This document shows, in pieces, positions 6,396 to 63,249 of a stretch of 64,000 nt of DNA. Each line of letters starts with the position of its first letter. Position 1 is the stretch's first letter. A program made the position numbers and the translations under genes. The stretch spans positions 2,356,001-2,420,000 of the forward strand of contig CAKKNE010000004.1 of assembly GCA_918797485.1 (NCBI GenBank), in the 5' to 3' direction. The notes below the pieces were generated by a model. That model searched no databases. It had not been told where the DNA came from and worked only from the letters and a program-made list of their open reading frames with translations. The stretch is from Pelagomonas calceolata. Taxonomy: Eukaryota.

Positions 6396-6503
6396 TTACA
6401 CCCCCACCGCGACCTCGCCCCGGGCCTTCGCGTCCAACAACGCTAGAGTAGCGGGCAGGTCCAGGAACCGCAGCCCGAAGCGCGAGTTGTACTTCGTGAG
6501 CAT
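6396..6503 (-). pseudogene. Orphan 3' end of a minus-strand gene
   Basis: Reads MLTKYNSRFGLRFLDLPATLALLDAKARGEVAVGV-stop with coding-like codons, then abuts a truncated introner. Confidence 0.4.
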
Positions 6504-6573
6504 GGAAATAAACCAGTGAGTTAGGTTACATCATGTCGATGGCGTGGGCGCCCGAAATTTGATTTCCACACAG
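6503..6573. mobile_element. Introner element with truncated left TIR
   Basis: tggaaataaaccagtgag...gtcgatggcgtgggcg...tttgatttccacacag, closely similar to the 60095-60170 copy; left ctgtg end and left TSD are missing. Confidence 0.8.
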
Positions 6574-6693
6574 GTACGGAGAAGCAATTGAATCGACTGT
6601 CGCATGTGAAAATGGACATGCCCGTGGGCGCCGAGCTCATAAAACTATTGGATGACGAGCGGGCGGCGCTCGACGATGCGCGCCGGACCATCG

Positions 6694-19452: not shown

Positions 19453-20556
19453 TTAGACCTCGTCCCGCGGCGACGATCCAATTTTGGCTTGCTCAGCAGC
19501 TCGCAGCTTTTCGTGGTACTTCGCCAGCCTCCTTTTCCGCCGCGCCGCGGCCTTCGGCCCGAGCCGCGCCTCGTAGGCCCGGCACTCCGCCAGGAGCGCC
19601 CGTAATAATGCCGCCTCGAGGCGCTCGTGCCTCGGCCACGTCTTTGATGCTGGGTACGCCTTCACCAAGACATAGTTCAGGGAGCGCGTCGACCGCAAGT
19701 AAAGCATGGCGTAGTACCGTAAAGTTTTAACGAAGAGCCAGGCCTGGCGCGGCAGGCGCCACGCCGTCTTGAGCACGATTCTGATCTCTCTTGTATTTAA
19801 CACCATCAAGCCATAGTATCTTGAAAAAAAACGTTCGATGGGGCCCTCATATCTATGCATGACCTGGTTGAGCTCGTTGACCGTTTCTTCCCGAGCTTTG
19901 ATCAGAGCTTTCGCAAACCCGCGCCGCAACGCGTCGTCCGTGAAATTTGCATATCTTTCCAGGAACGTCCCCACGCAGCGATCGCGCAACGGCCGGACGC
20001 AACACCTTCGGACGACAAACACGACAACCCTCAAAGGGATGCCAACCACCACGCCCAGCAACCTTCCTAAAGAAGCAAACCCATCGGAATCCCACGAGCC
20101 CCGCTTCACGAAGAGTCCGATCCTATCTTGGGGCGCCGCCCGGTTATTCATCTTCCAGAGCTTCTCCTGCATTTCAACCGAATTTTTCGCTTGCTCCCAC
20201 ATGGTCAGGTAGTGCCGCGCGTTCATCGCCGTGCCGTTGCTCGATAGAGACGAGAGGTTGTAGGCCCTGATGTCCAACAGTTTTTTTGGGTCGGGCACAG
20301 CGTACGAAAAGTTGCGGCGGGGCACCTTGACCTTGATGGCGGCGAGCTTGGCCCTTCTTCCTCTTCCTAGCAATTTGGCCCGCTCCCACCGCTCCTCAGC
20401 CTCCATTCGTTCTTCGAGCGGCAGGGCCTTCCGCGCGACGGCGTAGACGCGTTCGATGTTTCGTCTCCGCTTCGAGCCCTTGCGCGTGTTGTTCGCGTCG
20501 GCGCCGAATTGTAGCTTCGCTGCGGCGGCGTGGAGGAGGAAAGGGAGGAGGCGCAT
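19453..20556 (-). CDS. Hypothetical protein with signal peptide
   Basis: 367-aa ORF, MRLLPFLLHAAAA N-terminus, one hydrophobic segment. Confidence 0.65.
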   Translation of the reverse strand: MRLLPFLLHAAAAKLQFGADANNTRKGSKRRRNIERVYAVARKALPLEERMEAEERWERAKLLGRGRRAKLAAIKVKVPRRNFSYAVPDPKKLLDIRAYNLSSLSSNGTAMNARHYLTMWEQAKNSVEMQEKLWKMNNRAAPQDRIGLFVKRGSWDSDGFASLGRLLGVVVGIPLRVVVFVVRRCCVRPLRDRCVGTFLERYANFTDDALRRGFAKALIKAREETVNELNQVMHRYEGPIERFFSRYYGLMVLNTREIRIVLKTAWRLPRQAWLFVKTLRYYAMLYLRSTRSLNYVLVKAYPASKTWPRHERLEAALLRALLAECRAYEARLGPKAAARRKRRLAKYHEKLRAAEQAKIGSSPRDEV

Positions 20557-20743
20557 GGCTCGTCGCGGCGCGCAGCCGCTGCTGCGGTGGCAGGGGCAGC
20601 CCTGTGCGGTTCTAGTACGTCTACGTCTAGCTTTTCACACCGGCATCCGCGGCGAGACTGACGCTATCTATAGATCGTCAACTGGCTGCCCTTCACTCAG
20701 AAATACACCATCAGCTGCCTCTGCGAGTCCTGGGCTCGCCGCG

Positions 20744-21910
20744 ATGATCCTCACCCAATGCCCATGCTGTGCTGCCCCTTTGCCGCCCACCTCAGCCAAA
20801 CAATGCAGCCGCTGCAAGACGCGCTACTGCGGAGTGGCCTGCCAGAAAAAGCACTGGGAAGAGGGCGGCCACGACAAGCTCTGTAGAAAGATAAGGAAAG
20901 GCGGCGGAGCTGAGCAATACAACGCAAATAAGAAGTACACGGAGGCTGTAGCTGTCGCGGCGGAGGAGTGCGCCGAGGACACGAAAGGCCAGACGTGCTA
21001 CATCTGCACGCAGGCCCTCCACTGGAAAACAAAGGAGGGCCTCGTGCGCGGGTGCTCGTGCCGCGGAACGGCGGGCTATGCGCACGTGTCGTGCTTGGCG
21101 GAGCAGGCGAAGATCTTGGTTGCGGAGGCCGAAGAGAACAACTTGGACCTGAAGGTGAAGCGGGCGAGGTGGGCGCGATGGAGCGCGTGTAGTCTGTGCG
21201 AGCAACGGTACCACGGCGCCGTGGCGTGCGCACTCGGGTGGGCGTGCTGGAACACGTATGCGGGGCGACCCGAGTCGGACACTCCTCGACAACTGGCGAT
21301 GAACCTGCTTGGGGTCGGTTTATACCAAGCACAACACTTGGAGGAGGCGTTATCCGTGAGGGAGGCCGCGTTGTCTATGGCGCGGCGGCTTGGTGGACCA
21401 GCAGAGCACATACTTACCTTGCAAGGCAATCTTGCGAATTTATATGGTCAACTCGGACAAAAAGAACAGGCCCTGCGCCTGCGACGAGACGTATATGCTG
21501 GAACTCTGAGGCTCCATGGCGAGGAAAAGGAACATACCCTCATAGAAGCCAATAACTACGCAATGAACCTTCTTGACCTACGGCGCTTCGAAGAAGTCAA
21601 GCTGTTCCTGCGCAAAATGCTACCCGTGGCGCAACGCGTTCTCACAGATAGCCATTTGATCACGCTTAAAATGAGGTGTTGTTTGGCGATGGCGCTCCAC
21701 GACGACCCCAGCGCCACGCTCGACAATTTCCGCGAGGCCGTGACGACGCTCGAGGACGTGGGACGGATTGCGCGGCGCGTGCTCGGCGCCAAGCACCCGT
21801 TCGTAGGATTGACTGAGCTACGCCTGCGGAACGCGCGAGCAACGGCCCGCGCCCGCGAACTCAACGTCAGCTCCCTCGCAGACGAGCTGGAGGCCATGAC
21901 GCCGACGTAA
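20744..21910 (+). CDS. MYND zinc finger + RING-CH (RINGv) + TPR-like repeat protein
   Basis: CPCC...CSRCKTRYCGVACQKKHW...HDKLC; CYIC...CSCRGTAGYAHVSCL...CSLC; kinesin-light-chain-like TPR repeats (NLANLYGQLG..EQAL). Confidence 0.85.
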   Translation: MILTQCPCCAAPLPPTSAKQCSRCKTRYCGVACQKKHWEEGGHDKLCRKIRKGGGAEQYNANKKYTEAVAVAAEECAEDTKGQTCYICTQALHWKTKEGLVRGCSCRGTAGYAHVSCLAEQAKILVAEAEENNLDLKVKRARWARWSACSLCEQRYHGAVACALGWACWNTYAGRPESDTPRQLAMNLLGVGLYQAQHLEEALSVREAALSMARRLGGPAEHILTLQGNLANLYGQLGQKEQALRLRRDVYAGTLRLHGEEKEHTLIEANNYAMNLLDLRRFEEVKLFLRKMLPVAQRVLTDSHLITLKMRCCLAMALHDDPSATLDNFREAVTTLEDVGRIARRVLGAKHPFVGLTELRLRNARATARARELNVSSLADELEAMTPT

Positions 21911-26813: not shown

Positions 26814-28420
26814 CTACACACTACTACCATTACTCGTCGCCGCCCGCTCGCGCAGCGCCGCACGCCACGCGTTGAAGCCCAATTTCTGGCTCCTGCGCGC
26901 GCTCGAATAGTTCATGGGCGGGGCGCCCGGGCGACGCATCTCCGTGACATAGTCCAGGAGCATCGGGATCCACCACTTGAAGACGCCCGTCCGCGACCCG
27001 GGGAGCGCGTGAAAGTGGAGGCAGTCCCGGGCGTGCAGGTCCGTGCGGGCCGTCACGAGCGGCCCGACGTCGTACAGGGTCGCGCCTTCAACCTTCGGCA
27101 GAAGCTCCTCCGCGACCATGGCCTCGAAGTCGAGGAATTTGCGCCAGAAATACGTGTCCTTGAGCGCTCTGTATTCGGGACTGCCTCGATTCTGGGGGTC
27201 ATCAGCGGCCCGCGACGCGACCGCCTCCTCGACGGCCTCGATTTTTTCCGGGGTGCTCGGCCCGGCCAGGTACGTCTCCCGGCAGCCGTAGACGGGACGG
27301 TAGATACCGCGAAACAGGAACGTCGTAGCGCCGGTGCCGTTCGCGAGCTTTTCCGCGAGAACCTGAACAGCGTGCGCCATGGCCCCGGGCTTACCCTGGT
27401 GCGCGCCGGTGTTGGCCTGTGTGGAAATCAACCAGTGTGTCAGGCACTCAGTCTTCCCGGCGATGACGTGGTCGAATGCGCCGTAAATTTGATTTCCACA
27501 CAGGTTTTGGCCACCACCACATCCCACTTCGGCAGTAATGATAATGCCCAGTGCGCCCGGTCGACGACGTCGTCGCGGCAGGCCTGCTTCCCGCCTCCAC
27601 GCCCGTGGCAGCGTGGGCTACCCCTGTCGCCGCACTTGTCGAGAACGGCCAGACCCTGCGCCGCGAGCGCGGTGCAGGTCGCGTTCGGGAGGATGGCGTC
27701 GTCGCCCCAGAGGTAGTCGTCGCGCAGAAAGGCCACTCGTAGCGAAGTGTCGCAGGCGTCCCCGCGCGTCATCGCGAACTTTTTCTTTTTGGGGTCGCCA
27801 GGGAAGGGTATACCCATTTTTTTGGTGGCGCGAAGGCGCGTGACGAGCGCGTCGTAGAAGCTTTGTGACGTCGAGTCGCCGACGACGAGGAGCCGCCGGA
27901 CGCGCGCCTCTGCGAAGCGCGCGCAGAGCTGCTCCGGTGTAACGAGGTCCGCGGGCGGCGTCATCGCACAGATCGCGCAGGTCGCGCGCCAGCGCCAGGC
28001 GAGCGCGTCGCGCGTCCGATTCCACTCGGCCTGGGTCCCCAGGCGCCAGTTCCAACGCTCCATCCAACCGTCCTCGCGCGGTATCGCACTCTCCCACAGG
28101 CCGGCGCCGAAGCCACCCTCGCGGTCGTACGCGCAGCCGCGGCGCGTCGCCGGGCACGTGATATTGACCGGTATTGGCGTCGGTCGGTGCGGCGCCTGCG
28201 GCGGTGGCTGCTGCGTGTGCTTTGCGTCAATGGTCTGCTGCCGCAGCCGCGCGAGTTGTTCTTTGAAATCGCCGCGCGCTCCCGCTGGTGGCTTGTAGGT
28301 GTGCTGCCTCTGCCGCGCGCGCCAGCGGTCCACGTCTCGCTGCCGCATCGGCCGGGCCGGCCGGCGGCTCGCTTCGTCCGCGCTACCGCAGGCGAGGACG
28401 ACTGCCAGCGCCAGACGCAT
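26814..28420 (-). CDS. PC-esterase/trichome-birefringence-like SGNH O-acyltransferase; exons 28420-27512 and 27416-26814
   Basis: Signal peptide, VVGDST, DVVV|ANTGAH restored by splicing out the introner, DCLHF (DxxH). Spliced length 1512 nt, in frame. Confidence 0.8.
27417..27511 (-). mobile_element. Introner element forming a GC-AG intron
   Basis: Perfect inverted ends cctgtgtggaaatcaa / ttgatttccacacagg; TSD gccaaaac vs gccaacac (7/8). Confidence 0.9.
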
Positions 28421-41904: not shown

Positions 41905-42324
41905 TCCGGGCAGCGTCCGCGGGCGCGAGGCAGCCTTTTTATAACGGAGGCGCGTGCGATGTCGGGAGGAGGCAGCTATCCGCGTCTATGGCGTTAGCGG
42001 AGCAGCCACCAAAAATCGCATCGAACCCGTACTTTCTAGTGTCTTACTCTACGCTAGCAGCGTTTTTTGGCTGAGCTTTTGCGACGGCATTGGTGGCAGT
42101 CCTACGGGTTACCTGCTCGCCTGCGCACCTACCGACTGCCAGCTTCAAGGCCTCGCCCAGCGAAACGCGTCCGCAGGGCTTGCAAGCCTCGGTAGCTGCC
42201 AGCCTCGGTCTCCGGCGCGGCGCGGAGCGCGAACGCTAAAGGGTAGCGTGCGCGCCGCGCAGCGCGGATGCCAGGGAGGCCGGCGCGCCAGCCCAGCAAG
42301 GCCCGCCCCTGGCGCCTCTGCGCC

Positions 42325-44382
42325 ATGAACCTCGACGAGCTCGAGAGCGCCGCGCCGCCGGCGCCGGCCCAGGCCAAGTCGCCGCGCGGCGAGGTCGTCA
42401 CGGACCCGCAGCAACTGAAGGCCTGGCGCGACGCGGGCGCGCTGCCGCCGCGCGGGTTAAGGACGGTCGTCGCCTTTCCCCTGGCGCTCGACGCCTCGTG
42501 GAGCGCCGTGCGTGCTGCTATAGCCGCCAAAACGCAGTCGTTGGGCGGCGACCTCGCCGAGGACCACGGAGCTTTATATGCTCGTAGAAGGCCCATCGCC
42601 AAGGACTTCGAGAGGATCGGCCCCGCCTGGAAGCGCCGCGAGGGCCTCGTGGGGACCGTCAAAAGGGCGGACGAATTGTGGGTCAAACGCACATTAACGT
42701 TGTCGCGGGGCGAGCTCGCCTACTTCGAGAAGCCGAACGACTGGATGGTGTCGACGAGCGCGCGCGGGAGATTGTCAGTGACGAAGGACACTTCACTGAT
42801 CGCGACCGAAAACGAGGATGGCGCCTACTTCCGCGGGCCCGCCGGCGCGCCGACGCCCCACACGCTAAGTGTGAACGACGAGTGGACCTTTGCGTTCGAC
42901 GACGCTCGTTCTTTGATAGCCTGGCGCGACGCCTTAGAAACAGCAAAAACGACGCCCCCGGGACCGGCGCCGCCGATCTTCGAGCTGCGGGCCGCCGCTG
43001 CGACGTCATCCGGGTCCGAGACGCGCCAGAGACACGTCGTCGTCGCCTGCGACGGCGACTGCCGCGAGCCGATCCGAGCCGCGGTCAAGGCTTTAAGGGA
43101 TGAGGACGCCGCTTGTGCTGAGTTGTGGAAGAGTGGATCGAAGGCGCCGCCGGACGTGTTTGTTCTGTTAGATCTCGCGGCGGCGGCTCGTAGAAAAGCC
43201 ATACAAAAACACCGCGACGCGTTTGCAAGGGTGCGGAGCGGCCTCGACCAAGCGGCGCTCCGCGTCGAGAAGGTCCGAGAATTAGTACAACCCGGCTACA
43301 CGGCCGCGCGCTTGGACGTGCCATCTGTACAAATCCCGGACATTGATAAGCCGTCGAACGACTGGCGCGACGGCTGTGTCGATGAGGACGCTAGAAGTGA
43401 TGCTCTAGAAGCTGCCGTGAGTTACCTGCCGGTGAATGAGACGGACCGACTCGTTTCGTTACGAAGAGCGTGTTCGTCGGCGTCCGCGGCTCTGGAAAGT
43501 CGCGCACATACAAAGGCCGCGGAGGACGCGCGGAAGCAGGAGCGCGACCTCGTGGACATCGTCGAGCCCGCCGTCAAGCGGGGACTGAGAGACATGTGCG
43601 ACAGTCTCGCGGACGCCGTCAAGGCGGGGGCCTGGATCGGGCCGGAAGCGCCGTCCTCCGACCTGTGGCGCGTCGACGAGGTCGCCGCCCTGACGAAGGA
43701 CGTCGTGCTCGTGCGCTTCGCGTGTACGAGGGATAGTGTCACGCCGGGAACCGTCTGGGTGACGCGCGACGCGACGTACTTCGCGCCGTCGCTCGTCGGC
43801 AAGGTGTCGTCCTTCTTCTCGTTCTCGTCGAAAAAGGAGGAGAAGTTGATCCGGATGGCTCATGCTGATTTATCAAAGGCGTCTCGGGTCGCGTCTCCGG
43901 TGCCGCTCAAATCCAATGCGGTGTCTCTGAAAAGTAGAGATGGGACGTCTTTGATTTTAACACTGATCACGCCGGGCGCCTCCGTGTCGGCCTTTGTGGA
44001 CGTGGTCACGACGTGCGCGGCGCCGCGGCCGCCGCCTCGACAAAAACCTGCGCCGGTCGTTGTGGAGGCCAAGCAGCCGGAGCAGCGCGAGGACGAGGTC
44101 GCGGGCGCGGCGCGGCGGCTGCGCGAGGCGCTGGCGCCGGTCGCGGAGCCGCCTCCTACGCCGCCGCGGCCCGAGCCGATGCTGCGCGCGCCGCCTCCTG
44201 CGCCGCAGTCGCTCGGTGACTTTACGGGCGTCAAGGACTCGAAGCTCGGGGCGCGGATCTCGCTGGGCTTTACCGCGACGACGCCGACTCATACGCTCGC
44301 GCCGCCGCCCCCGCCTCCCGCGCCGCCGCCCGAGGAGGACGACGACGACGATGTGTTTTTGGATGCGCTTGACGGGAGCTAG
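42325..44382 (+). CDS. PH-domain + GRAM-like protein with Pro-rich tail containing an RdRP-derived segment
   Basis: PH: WVKRTLTLSRGELAYFE...FAFDDARSLIAWRDAL. GRAM-like: FACTRDSVTPGTVWVT...YF. Confidence 0.75.
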   Translation: MNLDELESAAPPAPAQAKSPRGEVVTDPQQLKAWRDAGALPPRGLRTVVAFPLALDASWSAVRAAIAAKTQSLGGDLAEDHGALYARRRPIAKDFERIGPAWKRREGLVGTVKRADELWVKRTLTLSRGELAYFEKPNDWMVSTSARGRLSVTKDTSLIATENEDGAYFRGPAGAPTPHTLSVNDEWTFAFDDARSLIAWRDALETAKTTPPGPAPPIFELRAAAATSSGSETRQRHVVVACDGDCREPIRAAVKALRDEDAACAELWKSGSKAPPDVFVLLDLAAAARRKAIQKHRDAFARVRSGLDQAALRVEKVRELVQPGYTAARLDVPSVQIPDIDKPSNDWRDGCVDEDARSDALEAAVSYLPVNETDRLVSLRRACSSASAALESRAHTKAAEDARKQERDLVDIVEPAVKRGLRDMCDSLADAVKAGAWIGPEAPSSDLWRVDEVAALTKDVVLVRFACTRDSVTPGTVWVTRDATYFAPSLVGKVSSFFSFSSKKEEKLIRMAHADLSKASRVASPVPLKSNAVSLKSRDGTSLILTLITPGASVSAFVDVVTTCAAPRPPPRQKPAPVVVEAKQPEQREDEVAGAARRLREALAPVAEPPPTPPRPEPMLRAPPPAPQSLGDFTGVKDSKLGARISLGFTATTPTHTLAPPPPPPAPPPEEDDDDDVFLDALDGS

Positions 44383-44409
44383 CGGCCGTAAGATATATAT
44401 TATTAATCG

Positions 44410-57680: not shown

Positions 57681-60600
57681 TCACTTAGACAGGATGCGCC
57701 GCGCCGCGCCGGCCGGCACGCCCACCTCGACGAGGTCCTCGACGGAGACGTGAGCCAGCGCGTCGTCGTCGATCTCGTTCTCGATGAACAGCTCGAGCAG
57801 ACCCGAGAGACCCTCGTTCGCCAGTGCGACGGCGACCAGAGCGTATCCATCAGGCGCGACGTCGCCGGTCGGCGCGACGTCGGGCGTGACCCTTCCGAGC
57901 CCGTCGGCGACAATTTGCTGAAGATTGCGCAGATTCTGGTTCTCGTCGCGCAGGCGCGATATCTCATTCGCCTGGCTAGCGATGTTCTCCTTGTCTGCGA
58001 TCCTTTCGCGGAGCTGGCGCGCGCGCTCGACAGCCCGGCGTGCTTGTTCCTCGGCGTCGCGTAGCTCGGCCGCCAGTCCTCCCGCCGCGTCGCCCGGCGC
58101 CGCAGCCGTGCTCGACGCGGCCAGCGCCCGTGCCAACTCCGCGTCCTCGGCCTCGCGTCGCCGCGCCGCATCGGCGTCCTCGGCGGCGAGCGAGGCCGCA
58201 AGCACCGCGTCGATGTCCTCTTCCGGCTCGTCAGCGACCGCCGGCGCCGGCGCCGAGGCCTCGCGCGCGCTCAGCTCCAGCGCGGCGAGCAGTTGCTTGT
58301 CGCCGTCGTCGCCGCGGCTCTCAGCGCACGACGCGTCCAGGCCGCGCTCTAGATCGGCCGGCGCCACGGCTGCATCGGCCGCGAGCGACGCAGCAGGCCG
58401 CTTCGACTCGGCCAGCGCCCGTTCCATCTCCGCGTCTTCTGCCGCGCGGCGCCGCGCCGCGTCGGCCTCGCTTTCCGCCATTGACGCCGCCACGGCCGCA
58501 CCTAAATCCTCGGTCGTCTCGGCCGGCTCGGCCGGCGGCTCCTCTTTCGACTCCGCCACGCCTCCCACTCCTCTTTCGACTAACTCGTCACGCGCCCGCC
58601 GCTCTAGCTTTTCCTCGTCCTTCACCTCGTCGGACTCGTAGCCTACTCCGTGTAACCTCGCGAGCCGCTCGCGCTCGAAGCGTCTGAGTTCACGTTCCTG
58701 TCGCTTCAGCTCGTCGCGTTCGTAGGCTTCGTAGGCTTCCCGCGATGCCGCCAGCGCCATGAGCTCCGAGTTATCGTTGACCTCCCGGAAGGTCCGCGCC
58801 CGGTCGGCGCGTCGTTGCTCGTCTTTTAGACTATTCGCCACGACGTCCTGTTCGAACTTGTCCGCGAGGGCGGCGCGCGCGCGCGCCTCGGCGAGGCTAG
58901 CTTCCTGTGCGCGCCGTAGCGCTTCCATCTCGCTTAATGGTTCAGGTTCGCGCCGCGGCGGCCGTGGCGGTCTCGCCGGAGCCGCCGCGTCGTCGACCGC
59001 GCGCCGCTCGTCGATCTCGGGCGCCGGCGCGCGGTTGGCAGCGCCCGCCGCGCGGTCGACGCTGTTGACGGCCTCTTCGACGTCGAGCATTTCCTTCGCG
59101 ATCCCGTCGGGATGGTCGTGCGCGACGGCGCGCATGGGATCGTCGGCAGCCGTCGGCGACCACTTGATCTTGAAGAGGATCTTGTCCTTGACCGTCTGAT
59201 GAGATACGTGCCAGTACTCGGGGCAGTCGAAGAAGTCGTGGACTCGTCGCCGATGCTGAGCCTCGAAGACGAACTTCTTCTCCTCGCCGACTGAGGCCCT
59301 CTCCGCGAAGCGCACGGCCTCGCGAAAATTCTCCCGGAGTGACGCGTCGGCGTCGCCCGCGCCGTCGTCCGGGAGCAGCCGTAACAAGTCCGGGAAGTCC
59401 TTGCGCCGCTGTTTCTTAAACGTCAAGACGAGCTTCTTCGGCTCCGTCCCGCGCGACACGTGCCGCACCGGCGCGTAAAGTTCGTCGGCATCTAACACAC
59501 TATGCAGGCGCTTTCGCACCTCGCGAGTAAGCTGTAGCTCCCGGCGGGCATCAGCGAAGCGCGGGTCCTTGTAGAGGTCCGCGAACATCTTCGCGGCGCG
59601 CAACGCGTCGTTAAAGCTACTGACGCGCTGCTCCCGCACGAGCCGCGCCGCCGTCTCCGGCTCCTCGGCCCTCGACAGGTCTAGCACGCTGCCCACGAGC
59701 TTCGCCTCCGCCCTCCGCGCTAGAGGGTCATCGACGTCGAATTGTAACTGCTTGATGCGCTTCTCGACGGCATTGATGATTGTTTCGTAGCGGTAGAACA
59801 TCCCTCTCATGATATCATGGTTTCCGTTGACGAGCTTGCCCCGCGGCGCCGCTGCACCGCTTGGAATCCAGCGTGGCTGCTGCTGCGACGACGACCTTGA
59901 GCACCGCATCGCCGCGTCGAAGGCGTTCTGGAGCGCGTCGCCGCGCCCGGTCGTCCGCACATCCAACGCCAGCTCGTGACACCGCGCCCAGCGTTCTGCC
60001 GCGTCCGAAGCTACCCCATGTCGATCAACGGCCAGCAACCAATTGATGGCCGACCGAGGAACCAATTTCCCGCGATCCAAAAGGATGCGCAGACCTGTGT
60101 GGAAATCAACCAGTGAGCTATCGCCGTCGCGTCGATGGCGTGGGGCGTCTGAAGTTTTGATTTCACACAGGCGCAGACTGCTAATCATCGCCGTCGCCGA
60201 GGGGGAGAACGCCCTGGTGCTCGGCGAGAAGACCGTCGTCGCCTTCAACGCGGCATCGGCCGCGGCCCACGCGCGTAGTTCGTCATCGGAGCGCGGGTCG
60301 CGCGCAGCGTATGCCGCAGGCGCCGCCTCTTTCGCGAGCAAGACAATCTGATAAAACGCGCCGCGGGCCAGCGCGAAATAAAGCTCGTCTCCGTCGTTGT
60401 CGCCGCCGGCCATTTTATCGGGTTCGGGGCGCTCGCCCTGGTAGCTGAAGACTGCGACGTCACATAGGTGGCGCCACGCCGGCCGGCCCGCTACGGCCAT
60501 TAATTTACGTACGTCGCCCTTGTTGCAGCACGGCGACCGGAAGCAGAGCACGGGTCCGACGTAAGCTCCATTACCTAACAACACCTCGCCTTCCGCCAAC

Positions 60601-63249
60601 TCTATGTTTACGTCGGCGGCGCAGACGCCCTGAGCGATCCAGAGGTCGCTCTCTCCGCTTGCGTTCACGCCACAAGGGATGTTCATTTTGGCCTTGGCCG
60701 CCACGAGAGCGCGGCTGATGGCTTTCAGCACTTTCAGATCTTCGGGCGTGCCGTCGTTGCTAAAGGGTGATCGCCAGCGCCGCTCCAGTAATCGCGCGCG
60801 GTCGTCGGCGTCGTCCTCGTCCCCGATGAACGTCTCCGGCAGGATCTCGATCTCCCGACACGCAGCTTCGAGCTTCGCGAGGTGATCGGGCGTCGCGCCC
60901 TCGTCCAGAATCCCATCTGAGCCGTCGGCCTTCGTCCACAGCAGCGTGCCCTCGATGAACTTGTTCATCAACTCGTGGAGGAACCGCACGTCGCCGCCGG
61001 CGCGGTCGCGTTCGTCCATCAACATGTTGCTGATCACGATGATCGCCTGGCAGAACAACATGTTGCCCGCCTTCTTGATCTTCGCGGCGGCCTTGACCTC
61101 GAGGCAGCGGTGGCCTGCGCGGTATTAGCCCATGAGTGTACTCTCAACACACGCCATCGAGCAGACGCGATGGCGATTTGATTTCGATTTCTGCACAGGC
61201 CTTGCTTGAAGCTCCCTTAATCATCGAGGGTCGTAACAACAGCTGGACTCCGGTCAGCGTGGGGTCGATGACCAGCATACCCTTGCAAAGACCGATTCTA
61301 ATCTGACACGCCGTGACGCGCGTGCCCATCGCCCGCGAAACGAGGTCTGCCAGCCCCTGAGATATGACGCCACAACCGTCGGACCAGCAGTAGCCGGCTC
61401 GCCAGACGTCCGGGATGACACTTATTTGGTGCGGCGCCAGCGTCACCGTAGGGATGGTAGCCGTGAACGCTAACGAAACGCGGTGGCCGAGCTTCGAGTC
61501 CTTGACGCCTGTAAAGTCGCCGAGCGACTGCAGAAAGTTCTCGGCGGAATAGAAGCGGTCCAGCTCGTCGGCTTCAGGGCGCGTCCGGAGGAAATGAATA
61601 GTAGGGCTGATGCCCTTGTCGAAGAGGTAGTAGCAGTCCTCGTCGCAGCACTGAATCGGCGCGAGCTCGCCGCCGCGCTTCGTGAAGTGCTCGACGATCT
61701 CTCCCGCGTCGAATTTGATGCGCGAACTCACAAAGCGGTCTGCGGCCGCCAACTCAAAGTGCGTCGCCCTCGAGTGCCCACGGAACTCGATAGAATTTGG
61801 CACAAGAATGACCGTGCCCGTCTGCATGTCGTGGTCGAGCCGCGCCCGCAGGTTTGGCACCTGCACTCGTGCTTTTGCCGACGTATCTGCACCGCCCGAG
61901 AAGAGCGCGCGCTCGTTGGAAATCCGATGTCGCAGCGCGTCGTCCATTGCCGCTTCCGTAGCTCTCGAGAAGAGACGCAGAGCTTCGTCGGGCGATCTAG
62001 TATCTTTGCGCTCCTCAGCGAGCCGTCCGACGAGCGCCGCCAGAGGATCGCCGAGCGCGACGGCCGTGTGCCAGGACTCGAGCTGACCGCGCCGCCGGCG
62101 GTTCCAATTCTGTGCCACCGTGGTGACGACCTTGGTCGAGAACGCCCTTGCGACGTTTTCGCACGTGACCTGGTCCTTGAGCGGCTCGTTCTTGAGAAGT
62201 GCGGCTTCCAGCGCGAAGCGAATGCAGAACGGGAGTCCTTTCGATTTCGCGAGGCTTCGAAAGTCCTCGAGCAGTGCCGCGACGTTTAACGCGCGTAAAC
62301 CTTCCCTCCGCGGCGGGTCTAGCTTGACCAAGTCGAGCATTTTACAAGCCATGCGTTGGCCCTGGAAGACGGAGAGCTGCGCGCGCCTCTCGTCTAATTC
62401 CTGCTTAGCAGTCGCTCTCGACTCGTTGAGAGCACTCTGATACTCGGGGTTCTTGCTATTTGCGACGCACTCCTCCCATAATTTGCGGCTTGCTATATTC
62501 TGAAGGTTTTCTACTATAGGAGTCGCTTCGTAAGCGGTTGGCGCGGCCGGCGTCGCGATCGCAATCTCCGGCGCGGGCGGAGCGATGCGCCGGGCGCCGC
62601 CCACGCCATAGGGCCGCGAGCCGTACCTCGGGCACCGTCTACAGATAAAGGTGGGCTGCTTTAATGGTATCGGTGCGCCCTGGGCGTACATACCCTCGCC
62701 GAACGTCATGTTGTAGTGAGGCTCGCCGATGCCATTGCTGAACGGCGTCTCGAGGTCAGTCGCCGGCCGCCCGTAGCCGCACCGTTCGCATAGGCAAATG
62801 ACGACCGGCTCCGTCGTCGCGTGCCCGCCGAAGATCGCTCGATATAATCCGTCGTCGCCGGGTACTTCGAGTATTTTCGGTTTCGCGTAGCGCCGAACGT
62901 GAATAGCCGCGTCCTGCTCGTGCGCGTCCTCAGCCGGCGTGGGCTGCGGTTCGACGTCTCGCGCGGCGGCTATGTCCTCCCTAAGGTCCAAACGGCGACG
63001 TAGCGCCGGCTGCGCCGGCTGCGCTGCGGACCGCTGCTGCGGTCGCTGCGGCTCGTCGGCCGTGTTCGCAAACGCTCCTCCGCTTCGCGGTTTTTTCGCT
63101 TCAACGCGCGGCGCTTGCTGCTGCGCTCGCAGCGCCTGCGCGACTGCGGCCGCTGCGTCGAGGTCTAATGCATGATCAACACGACGCGGCTGCGGCGCCT
63201 CGTCGGCAGCAGCCAGCGGTCTGAATTTAGTAGGAGTCCTGCGCGGCAT
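57681..63249 (-). CDS. Cellular RNA-dependent RNA polymerase (RDR/QDE-1 family) with R3H-like, UIM-repeat and SAM tail; exons 63249-61206, 61114-60179, 60094-57681 (1797 aa)
   Basis: KLGHRVSLAFT, WSDGCGVIS, CQIRIGLCKGML, RPSMIK..|..LEV, RSPCCNKGDV, FSYQGERP..DKMAGGDNDGD. Spliced length 5394 nt, in frame. Confidence 0.9.
60095..60178 (-). mobile_element. Introner element forming an 84-nt GT-AG intron in RdRP
   Basis: Perfect 8-bp TSD gcgcagac at 60087-60094 and 60171-60178 flanking ctgtgtggaaatcaa...ttgatttcacacag. Confidence 0.92.
61115..61205 (-). mobile_element. Degenerate introner-derived GC-AG intron in RdRP
   Basis: Starts gcaaggc-ctgtgcagaaatcg, contains the cgccatcg motif, ends cgcag. 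Removal gives RPSMIKGASSHRCLEV, the usual RDR spacing. Confidence 0.75.

What the first reader, a model, noticed from the sequence alone, without database searches (positions are those of the whole stretch)
44205..44305. A 33-codon RdRP segment embedded in frame in an unrelated PH/GRAM gene, diverged mostly at silent sites
Seen: QSLGDFTGVKDSKLGARISLGFTATTPTHTLAP in the tail of gene 42325-44382 matches RdRP QSLGDFTGVKDSKLGHRVSLAFTATIPTVTLAP (61431-61531, opposite strand). 28/33 residues are identical, 12 of those 28 use different synonymous codons, and the first 45 nt are 43/45 identical. The segment is flanked by poly-Pro linkers. It covers the conserved RDR K..AR...F[ST] motif, and the copy's KLGAR is nearer the consensus than the RdRP's own KLGHR. 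Inference: either capture from another RdRP paralog, or a peptide kept under selection as a mimic or shared docking motif linking a membrane-binding PH/GRAM protein to the RNAi machinery. The near-identical 45 nt could also allow siRNA cross-targeting.
Basis: partly seen in the sequence, partly recalled or inferred. Interest (0 to 1): 0.8.

Follow-up and report, generated by a model that had tools for sequence, protein, structure and literature searches.

The report
RNAi-enzyme peptide repeatedly copied into tails
In this marine alga the same short piece of an RNA-silencing enzyme sits in the tails of three unrelated proteins while the enzyme itself varies unusually at that spot, which likely means the copies are decoys for a still unidentified pathogen factor predicted to attack the enzyme there.

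Summary
The match is real: 28/33 residues, 12 synonymous codons, 43/45 nt. A DNA contig and a putative RNA contig span it. It is a rare insertion allele: 0 of 24 wild near-identical alleles with a readable tail carry it. The silent differences are no sign of selection; ordinary alleles here differ at 31% of fourfold sites. The donor is likely another allele of the same RDR gene, not a paralog. The new result lies outside the window: the same 18-residue core sits, with different boundaries, in the C-terminal tails of two other unrelated proteins, a vWA-like protein (3 sequences) and a TPR-family protein (2 sequences). The core is the RNA-binding helix before the RDR's first barrel. It is the most polymorphic patch of the catalytic core among 25 alleles (p about 0.01-0.07), its RNA-contacting residues stay fixed, and 0 of 35 RDR sequences keep the I591+G594 form that all 6 inserts keep. 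Best reading (about 50%): selected decoys for a pathogen protease or suppressor. No attacker was found, and the control for captures of other RDR segments is missing.

The parts
42325..44382 (+). Host gene, 685 aa, no intron seen; weak PH domain; Pro-rich C-terminal tail
   Evidence: orthologues 72-96% identical
42667..42945 (+). PH-like domain (residues 115-207), below Pfam cut-off
   Evidence: PF00169 E 0.012, 16.6 bits against 25.1
44206..44304 (+). RDR-derived 33-codon insert (RDR residues 574-606)
   Evidence: absent from wild alleles
44227..44280 (+). 18-residue core (RDR 581-598) shared by all six insert sequences from three host genes
44191..44206 (+). Left copy of a 16-nt near-direct repeat (host Pro codons)
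   Evidence: 15/16 identical to 44311-44326
44311..44326 (+). Right copy of the 16-nt repeat; host flank likely duplicated at insertion
44332..44373 (+). Acidic tract plus VFLDA, FFAT-like (motif label recalled, untested); kept in all readable wild tails
57681..63249 (-). Donor gene: eukaryotic RDR in two ORFs joined by an inferred GC-AG intron at 61115-61205
   Evidence: PF05183 E 1.4e-27 and 2.8e-20; intron inferred (wild read-through in P0088)
61432..61530 (-). Homologous RDR segment, residues 574-606, containing the helix before the first double-psi barrel (D1AH in QDE-1)
60387..60401 (-). Catalytic DxDGD motif of the RDR (DNDGD)
   Evidence: translation

Best explanation
A 33-codon piece of the RDR gene's RNA-binding helix sits in the tail of an unrelated protein, the same core sits in two other unrelated proteins of wild samples, and these copies likely act as decoys for a pathogen factor (most likely a viral protease or silencing suppressor) predicted to recognise this stretch of RDR as a linear sequence. 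Steps: (1, shown) three host genes carry the core near their C-termini with different boundaries; (2, inferred) each arose by microhomology-guided template switching from an RDR allele bearing I591+G594, a form found in none of 35 RDR sequences; (3, shown in protein sequences) RDR alleles vary at 584-601 while R590, S592 and T596 are fixed; (4, inferred) that variation is escape from the attacker under the constraint of RNA binding; (5, inferred) the inserts display the susceptible form in an exposed tail of a more abundant protein and soak up the attacker, or, in the RING-TPR family host, would bait it to a ubiquitin ligase. The window's copy is a rare allele of this kind.
For: Recurrence: vWA-like P0082, P0085, P0097 and TPR-family P0084, P0095 carry the core; P0096 and P0094 of the same clusters do not. 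Boundaries differ (RDR 568-601, 574-606, about 580-603), so the TPR and window inserts cannot be copies of each other. All lie 6-33 residues from the C-terminus. Core 18/18 identical among vWA-like hosts whose bodies are 86-94% identical. 6 of 6 inserts have I591+G594, 0 of 35 RDR sequences do; 9 of 35 are one step away by two routes. I and G are also the residues of a solved QDE-1, so this is likely the ancestral form. Patch polymorphism in residues 506-682: p 0.010 and 0.021 for the core window, 0.037 and 0.066 for a scan maximum, with radical changes F595 to N, C, S and A589 to H, V, P. Fixed residues match by spacing QDE-1 R671, Q673, S677 that bind the product RNA (PMC9508822). Escape of targets and short-motif mimics of protease sites are established in animals (PMC8591160).
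Against: No attacker found: no match to the motif in viral contigs, and no Pelagomonas virus among the 15 listed rows. Ascertainment: I searched with this peptide, so captures of other RDR segments, out-of-frame or non-coding captures could not appear; no control search was left. The patch is a cleft-lining helix, probably partly buried, which is awkward for a linear-motif reader; both folds failed (pLDDT 31 and 34). The permutation test treats related sequences and sites as independent, and the RDR's N-terminal region is more variable still (0.2-0.29 against 0.17-0.18). The window's insert has two departures from the other five (S597A, V602H) and is rare (0 of 24). 18/18 against 86-94% bodies is only mildly unexpected. 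No DNA of the wild inserts was seen; their species is inferred. Last 18 codons have 7/11 fourfold differences against 31% (p 0.03, post hoc), which also fits a nucleotide-level target.
Confidence: 0.5

Rival explanations
1. Neutral templated insertions from a favoured donor. The segment ends in Thr/Pro/Ala codons that offer microhomology to Pro-rich tails, RDR lies 17 kb from the PH gene, disordered tails tolerate additions, and the donor patch is polymorphic for unrelated reasons.
For: Junctions show 2-nt and 7-nt microhomology and a 16-nt flank duplication. All three acceptor sites are Pro/Thr-rich. Linkage of host and donor looks conserved (equal contig lengths 187078, 284441, 271840). The allele is rare and silent divergence is near background. 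No control for other segments.
Against: Thousands of genes offer such codons; three independent captures overlap in the same 18 of about 1,800 RDR codons; all keep a haplotype absent from 35 RDR sequences; only one such capture was seen in 64 kb of self-comparison. P0096 has no match in the window, so the vWA-like gene is not shown to be near RDR.
Confidence: 0.2
2. The target is nucleic acid, not protein: a viral or selfish small RNA or sequence-specific nuclease hits RDR mRNA at this site, RDR escapes by point changes, and the inserts are target mimics in abundant mRNAs.
For: 7/11 fourfold differences in the last 18 codons against 31% background (p 0.03, post hoc). A wild RNA contig in X15 lays across 44274-44275 with a listed 2-nt difference at 90% likeness or better, so the insert's codons have close wild relatives. 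Burial of the helix is no obstacle.
Against: Silent changes alone would suffice, yet alleles carry radical and multi-nucleotide replacements over about 50 nt; all known copies are sense and in frame (biased by the protein search); long-held balanced haplotypes also raise local silent divergence.
Confidence: 0.15
3. The peptide is a host linear motif (degron, modification site or docking site for an RNAi partner) that other proteins co-opt to change their own stability or location; no pathogen involved.
For: Terminal, exposed position in all hosts; core conserved among inserts.
Against: A host partner would conserve the motif in RDR, but RDR has left that form by several routes; hosts are unrelated and mostly lack it.
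Confidence: 0.1
4. The wild chimeras are assembly or gene-calling artefacts, leaving a single neutral insertion in one cultured genotype.
For: Only predicted proteins from short contigs (652-2548 nt) were seen; no reads or DNA.
Against: Each chimera recurs in separate assemblies (P0084 JGI and P0095 ENA on 2 contigs; three ENA vWA-like sequences that differ from each other) and returns to a Pro/Gly tail after the insert.
Confidence: 0.05

Closest known systems
Protease 'tripwires' in NLRP1 and CARD8, and host targets that evolve away from viral cleavage (PMC8591160)
   Same: A short linear mimic in an exposed region, set beside a true target that evolves to escape; polymorphic within species.
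   Different: Here the mimic is a literal copy of a host target captured as DNA into several unrelated genes; no FIIND/CARD or other death module in the hosts; no protease identified.
Plant decoys and integrated domains (PBS1, RRS1-WRKY, RGA5/Pik-HMA; recalled, not read)
   Same: Copy of a host defence target, acquired independently more than once, fused to another protein.
   Different: 24-34 residues rather than a folded domain; hosts are not NLRs; taken from an enzyme's active-site helix; segregates as presence/absence alleles.
Eukaryotic RDR, QDE-1-like (PF05183; PMC9508822, PMC1750930)
   Same: Donor gene has both Pfam stretches, the DxDGD motif and the D1AH helix with the RNA-contacting residues.
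   Different: That helix is highly polymorphic among alleles here.
Templated insertions by microhomology-mediated template switching (polymerase theta, FoSTeS/MMBIR; recalled)
   Same: Short copied tract, microhomology at both ends, duplicated flank, nearby donor.
   Different: Explains how a copy arises, not why one 18-codon stretch recurs.
miRNA target mimics (recalled)
   Same: Extra copies of a target site in other transcripts.
   Different: No small RNA known; copies are in frame and the donor varies in residues.

Membership tests
Eukaryotic RDR (donor gene) | PF05183 above cut-off and DxDGD catalytic motif | tested here: met
   (97.1 and 73 bits against 23.8); DNDGD
Eukaryotic RDR (donor gene) | Polymerase activity and a Dicer/Argonaute pathway in the organism | not testable with these tools
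   no whole genome held
Integrated decoy (NLR-ID) | Copy of a host protein segment acquired independently by other proteins | tested here: met
Integrated decoy (NLR-ID) | Host is an NLR (NB-ARC, LRR) | tested here: not met
   Pfam finds none in the window host or in the partial wild hosts
Integrated decoy (NLR-ID) | A pathogen effector binds both target and decoy | not testable with these tools
   no attacker identified
NLRP1/CARD8-type tripwire | FIIND plus CARD released on cleavage | tested here: not met
NLRP1/CARD8-type tripwire | Motif lies in a disordered, exposed region | tested here: inconclusive
   Pro-rich, length-variable tails; the fold is too poor to use
NLRP1/CARD8-type tripwire | Motif is cut by a pathogen protease | not testable with these tools
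   needs a bench assay
Microhomology-mediated templated insertion | Microhomology at both junctions and duplicated flank | tested here: met
   2 nt, 7 nt, 16-nt repeat with 1 mismatch
miRNA target mimic | Nucleotide conservation and pairing with a small RNA | not tested
   no DNA of the wild inserts and no small-RNA data obtained
PH/GRAM protein (host) | PH domain | tested here: inconclusive
   PF00169 16.6 bits against cut-off 25.1
PH/GRAM protein (host) | GRAM domain | tested here: inconclusive
   no Pfam hit at E 0.05; fold failed; atlas unanswered

The most novel reading that the evidence does not exclude
A wild algal population defends its RNA-silencing polymerase with 'peptide decoy alleles': unrelated genes repeatedly capture the 18-34 residue stretch of RDR that a virus attacks and display the susceptible form in their tails, in one case on a MYND-RING-TPR ligase family member, while RDR itself diversifies its active-site helix to escape. 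The decoys would give away the recognition sequence of an unknown anti-RNAi factor of marine viruses.
Probability: 0.45. Interest if true: 0.92.

Novelty: new variant of a known kind. Interest (0 to 1): 0.78.

Why it matters
If true it shows decoys arising from scratch, several times and still polymorphic, by short DNA capture into ordinary genes. It would be indirect evidence that RNA silencing is an antiviral front in a picoalga and that its viruses attack RDR directly at the RNA-binding helix. It gives a ready substrate panel (decoy form against about ten natural RDR haplotypes) to find that factor, and a general search rule: short segments of a defence gene recurring in unrelated tails mark where pathogens strike. 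Even on the neutral reading, a recurrent donor hot spot of 18 codons would need explaining.

Tried and rejected
Whole-genome search: no genome held. AlphaFold of a sister-lineage RDR (pLDDT 31) and of the host protein (pLDDT 34): unusable, no fold search run. Complex prediction not run: the peptide is an internal helix of RDR and no attacker is at hand. Viral contigs: 0 matches to an exact and to a degenerate motif pattern, 15 pattern hits but 0 confirmed for the RDR segment. Prokaryote genomes: 41 pattern hits, 0 of 41 with 12 or more of 27 residues matching, taken as chance. Metagenome scan gave only 2 loci, both empty alleles, from 14 of 64 parts. PDB search for the vWA-like host gave only chance hits; the atlas gave hypothetical eukaryotic clusters at 0.96 and vWA families at 0.86-0.88; its likeness to BABAM1/MERIT40 is recalled, not tested. 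Atlas for the host's second domain did not complete. Earlier findings: nothing in 3 look-ups. Rejected: closer paralog as donor; silent divergence as proof of selection; insert as an intron (no joint); the ENFLQS stretch as the key protease site (absent from vWA-like inserts and nearly invariant in RDR).

Full report
Observation. The match is as described. Window 44206-44304 (+) and 61432-61530 (-) give 28/33 identical residues (16 identical codons, 12 synonymous, 5 replacements), 74/99 nt, and 43/45 nt at the 5' end; tblastn E 4.9e-10 within the window. The donor is a eukaryotic RDR (PF05183, E 1.4e-27 and 2.8e-20 on its two ORFs). The host has only a below-cut-off PH hit and no GRAM hit. No whole genome is held. 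The organism is likely a Pelagomonas: the annotated copy of the host protein (P0021) lies on a 5.31-Mb contig, and P. calceolata is described as haploid with six chromosomes of 4-6 Mb and frequent GC-AG introns (10.1101/2024.10.30.620910, passages seen). This is inference.

Is it real and expressed? In one search a DNA contig (X2, possibly the window's own source) and a putative RNA contig (X6 record 17, 42200-44387, ending 5 nt after the stop) span the insert with no differences. Raw poly(A) reads (X21, about 6% of the run) cover the gene on the expected strand at depth 16-40 over 42605-43981, drop below 2 in the GC-rich 44063-44224, and give 7 own reads at 44274-44275; the 7 reads at 44217 and 44226 are RDR reads, as their loose ends show. 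So the left junction rests on contigs, not raw reads. No intron joint was seen. In X2, depth at 44217/44226 is the sum of two contigs (the gene and the RDR) and at 44274-44275 of one: no closer donor at 90% likeness or better, though copies below 90% would be missed.

It is a rare allele. Of 50 host-family proteins seen (48 of the 63 members of five clusters were listed, plus 2), 18 have no readable tail; of the rest, 0 of 24 wild near-identical alleles and 0 of 7 sister-lineage alleles carry the peptide, only P0021 does. Two metagenome loci are also empty (L002 is probably P0001's contig). The Pro runs pre-exist. The junctions show 2-nt and 7-nt microhomology with RDR and a 16-nt host repeat with one mismatch (44191-44206, 44311-44326), the anatomy expected of template switching during repair (inference from general knowledge).

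The silent-site argument fails. Wild alleles of the host gene differ from the window at 63/203 and 110/347 fourfold sites. Insert against window RDR: 10/20 fourfold sites (p 0.065), 12/28 synonymous codons (p 0.13), 3/9 in the first 15 codons, 7/11 in the last 18 (p 0.028, split chosen afterwards). Four of the five replacements are residues present in wild alleles of this RDR (A589 14/25, I591 14/25, G594 3/25, T599 15/25); H602 is private. The donor was therefore likely another allele of the same gene.

The peptide recurs in other genes. Searching with the 40-residue insert region returned 7 proteins: 4 RDRs and 3 that are not (P0082, P0084, P0085; P0082 also). Their clusters add P0095 and P0097 with the peptide and P0094 and P0096 without. 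P0082, P0085 and P0097 are a vWA-like eukaryotic protein (likeness to BABAM1/MERIT40 recalled only). P0084 and P0095 are C-terminal fragments of a TPR family whose member in this window (20447-21910, 22/37 identical to P0095) is MYND-RINGv-TPR; whether the insert-bearing genes have the RING is not seen. Boundaries differ: RDR 568-601 (TPR), 574-606 (window), about 580-603 (vWA-like), and all end 6-33 residues from the C-terminus. The shared core, 581-598, is identical in the five wild inserts and differs at one residue in the window; vWA-like bodies are 105/122, 107/122 and 132/140 identical. Searches see cluster representatives only, so this is a lower bound, but they were made with this peptide, so they cannot show whether other segments are captured as often.

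The donor patch is unusual. By alignment to solved RDRs the core is the helix before the first barrel. In QDE-1 this is D1AH (664-678); R671, Q673 and S677 contact the product RNA, and Q673 and S677 are among residues reported as important for activity (PMC9508822, passages). By spacing these are R590, S592 and T596, all fixed in 25 of 25 sequences, while 584, 585, 587, 589, 591, 594, 595, 597, 599 and 601 vary, with F595 to N, C, S and A589 to H, V, P (P0052, P0053, P0055 dropped for indels or frameshifts). In residues 506-682 the core window exceeds site shuffles at p 0.010 (heterozygosity) and 0.021 (allele count), a scan maximum at 0.037 and 0.066; sequences are related, so these are rough, and the N-terminal region is more variable still. 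Of 40 RDR proteins fetched, 6 do not cover the core; among the other 34 plus the window's there are 11 core haplotypes and none has I591 with G594, the form of all 6 inserts and of a solved QDE-1. Nine of 35 are one step from it, by either G594A or I591V.

Mechanism. Shown: three hosts, one core, different ends, terminal position, a polymorphic donor helix with fixed RNA contacts, a decoy haplotype missing from RDR. Inferred: an attacker reads this stretch as a linear sequence, RDR escapes, and captured copies that keep the old form are favoured because they divert it. The host transcript looks more abundant than RDR's (contig depth 23.8 against 4.8 in X6, a poor measure). Escape by targets and short mimics of protease sites are documented for animal viruses (PMC8591160, 12 of 15 passages seen). 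I put this at 0.5, neutral hot-donor capture at 0.2, a nucleotide-level target at 0.15, a host motif at 0.1, artefact at 0.05. Against the best reading: no attacker or viral copy was found, the helix may be partly buried (folds failed), the control scan and DNA of the wild inserts are missing, and the window's own allele is rare.

Literature. Ten searches; in the listings shown (titles and abstract starts only, often a small part of the hits) none describes RDR-derived peptides in other genes, RDR decoys, RNAi in Pelagomonas or a Pelagomonas virus; PelV-1 infects a dinoflagellate (PMC12338748, listing only). Most subscription papers are not in the library, and no supplements were read; those of the pangenome preprint are closed and might list RNAi genes. 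Papers read in passages: PMC9508822, PMC1750930 (6 passages; nothing on this helix), PMC8591160, 10.1101/2024.10.30.620910. Plant decoys, polymerase-theta insertions, target mimics, FFAT and introner labels are recalled.

Verdict. New variant of a known kind; interest 0.78.

Noticed in passing
window 6503-6575, 27422-27505, 60100-60171: Three related 70-85 nt elements with inverted ends (74-78% alike), one inside the second RDR ORF; likely introner-type introns (label recalled).
   Followed up: partly
window 20447-21910 (+): MYND-RINGv-TPR gene, same family as the host of P0084/P0095; its tail has no RDR peptide. The family may be an immune-type ligase expansion worth a tail-by-tail scan for captured peptides.
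   Followed up: partly
window 61115-61205 (-): Inferred GC-AG intron in RDR; many wild gene calls read into it or shift frame there.
   Followed up: partly
window 62300-62900 (-), RDR residues about 110-310: N-terminal RDR region has strongly diverged haplotype blocks among wild alleles (mean heterozygosity up to 0.29).
   Followed up: partly
window 57681-58950 (-): RDR C-terminal extension with repeated helical 'ELxRALxxS'-like motifs (ubiquitin-interacting-motif-like, recalled) and a weak SAM domain (E 0.018): unusual for an RDR.
   Followed up: no
window 44332-44373 (+): Acidic tract plus VFLDA kept in all readable tails; FFAT-like, suggesting an ER contact-site role for the host (recalled motif). 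The insert lies between the body and this motif.
   Followed up: no
L001, L002 against window 42325-44184: Alleles or sibling lineages differ at 31-32% of fourfold sites, very high for one species.
   Followed up: partly
P0038/P0073, P0031/P0052, P0044/P0053: Host-gene and RDR proteins list the same longest-contig lengths (187078, 284441, 271840), so their linkage is probably conserved.
   Followed up: no
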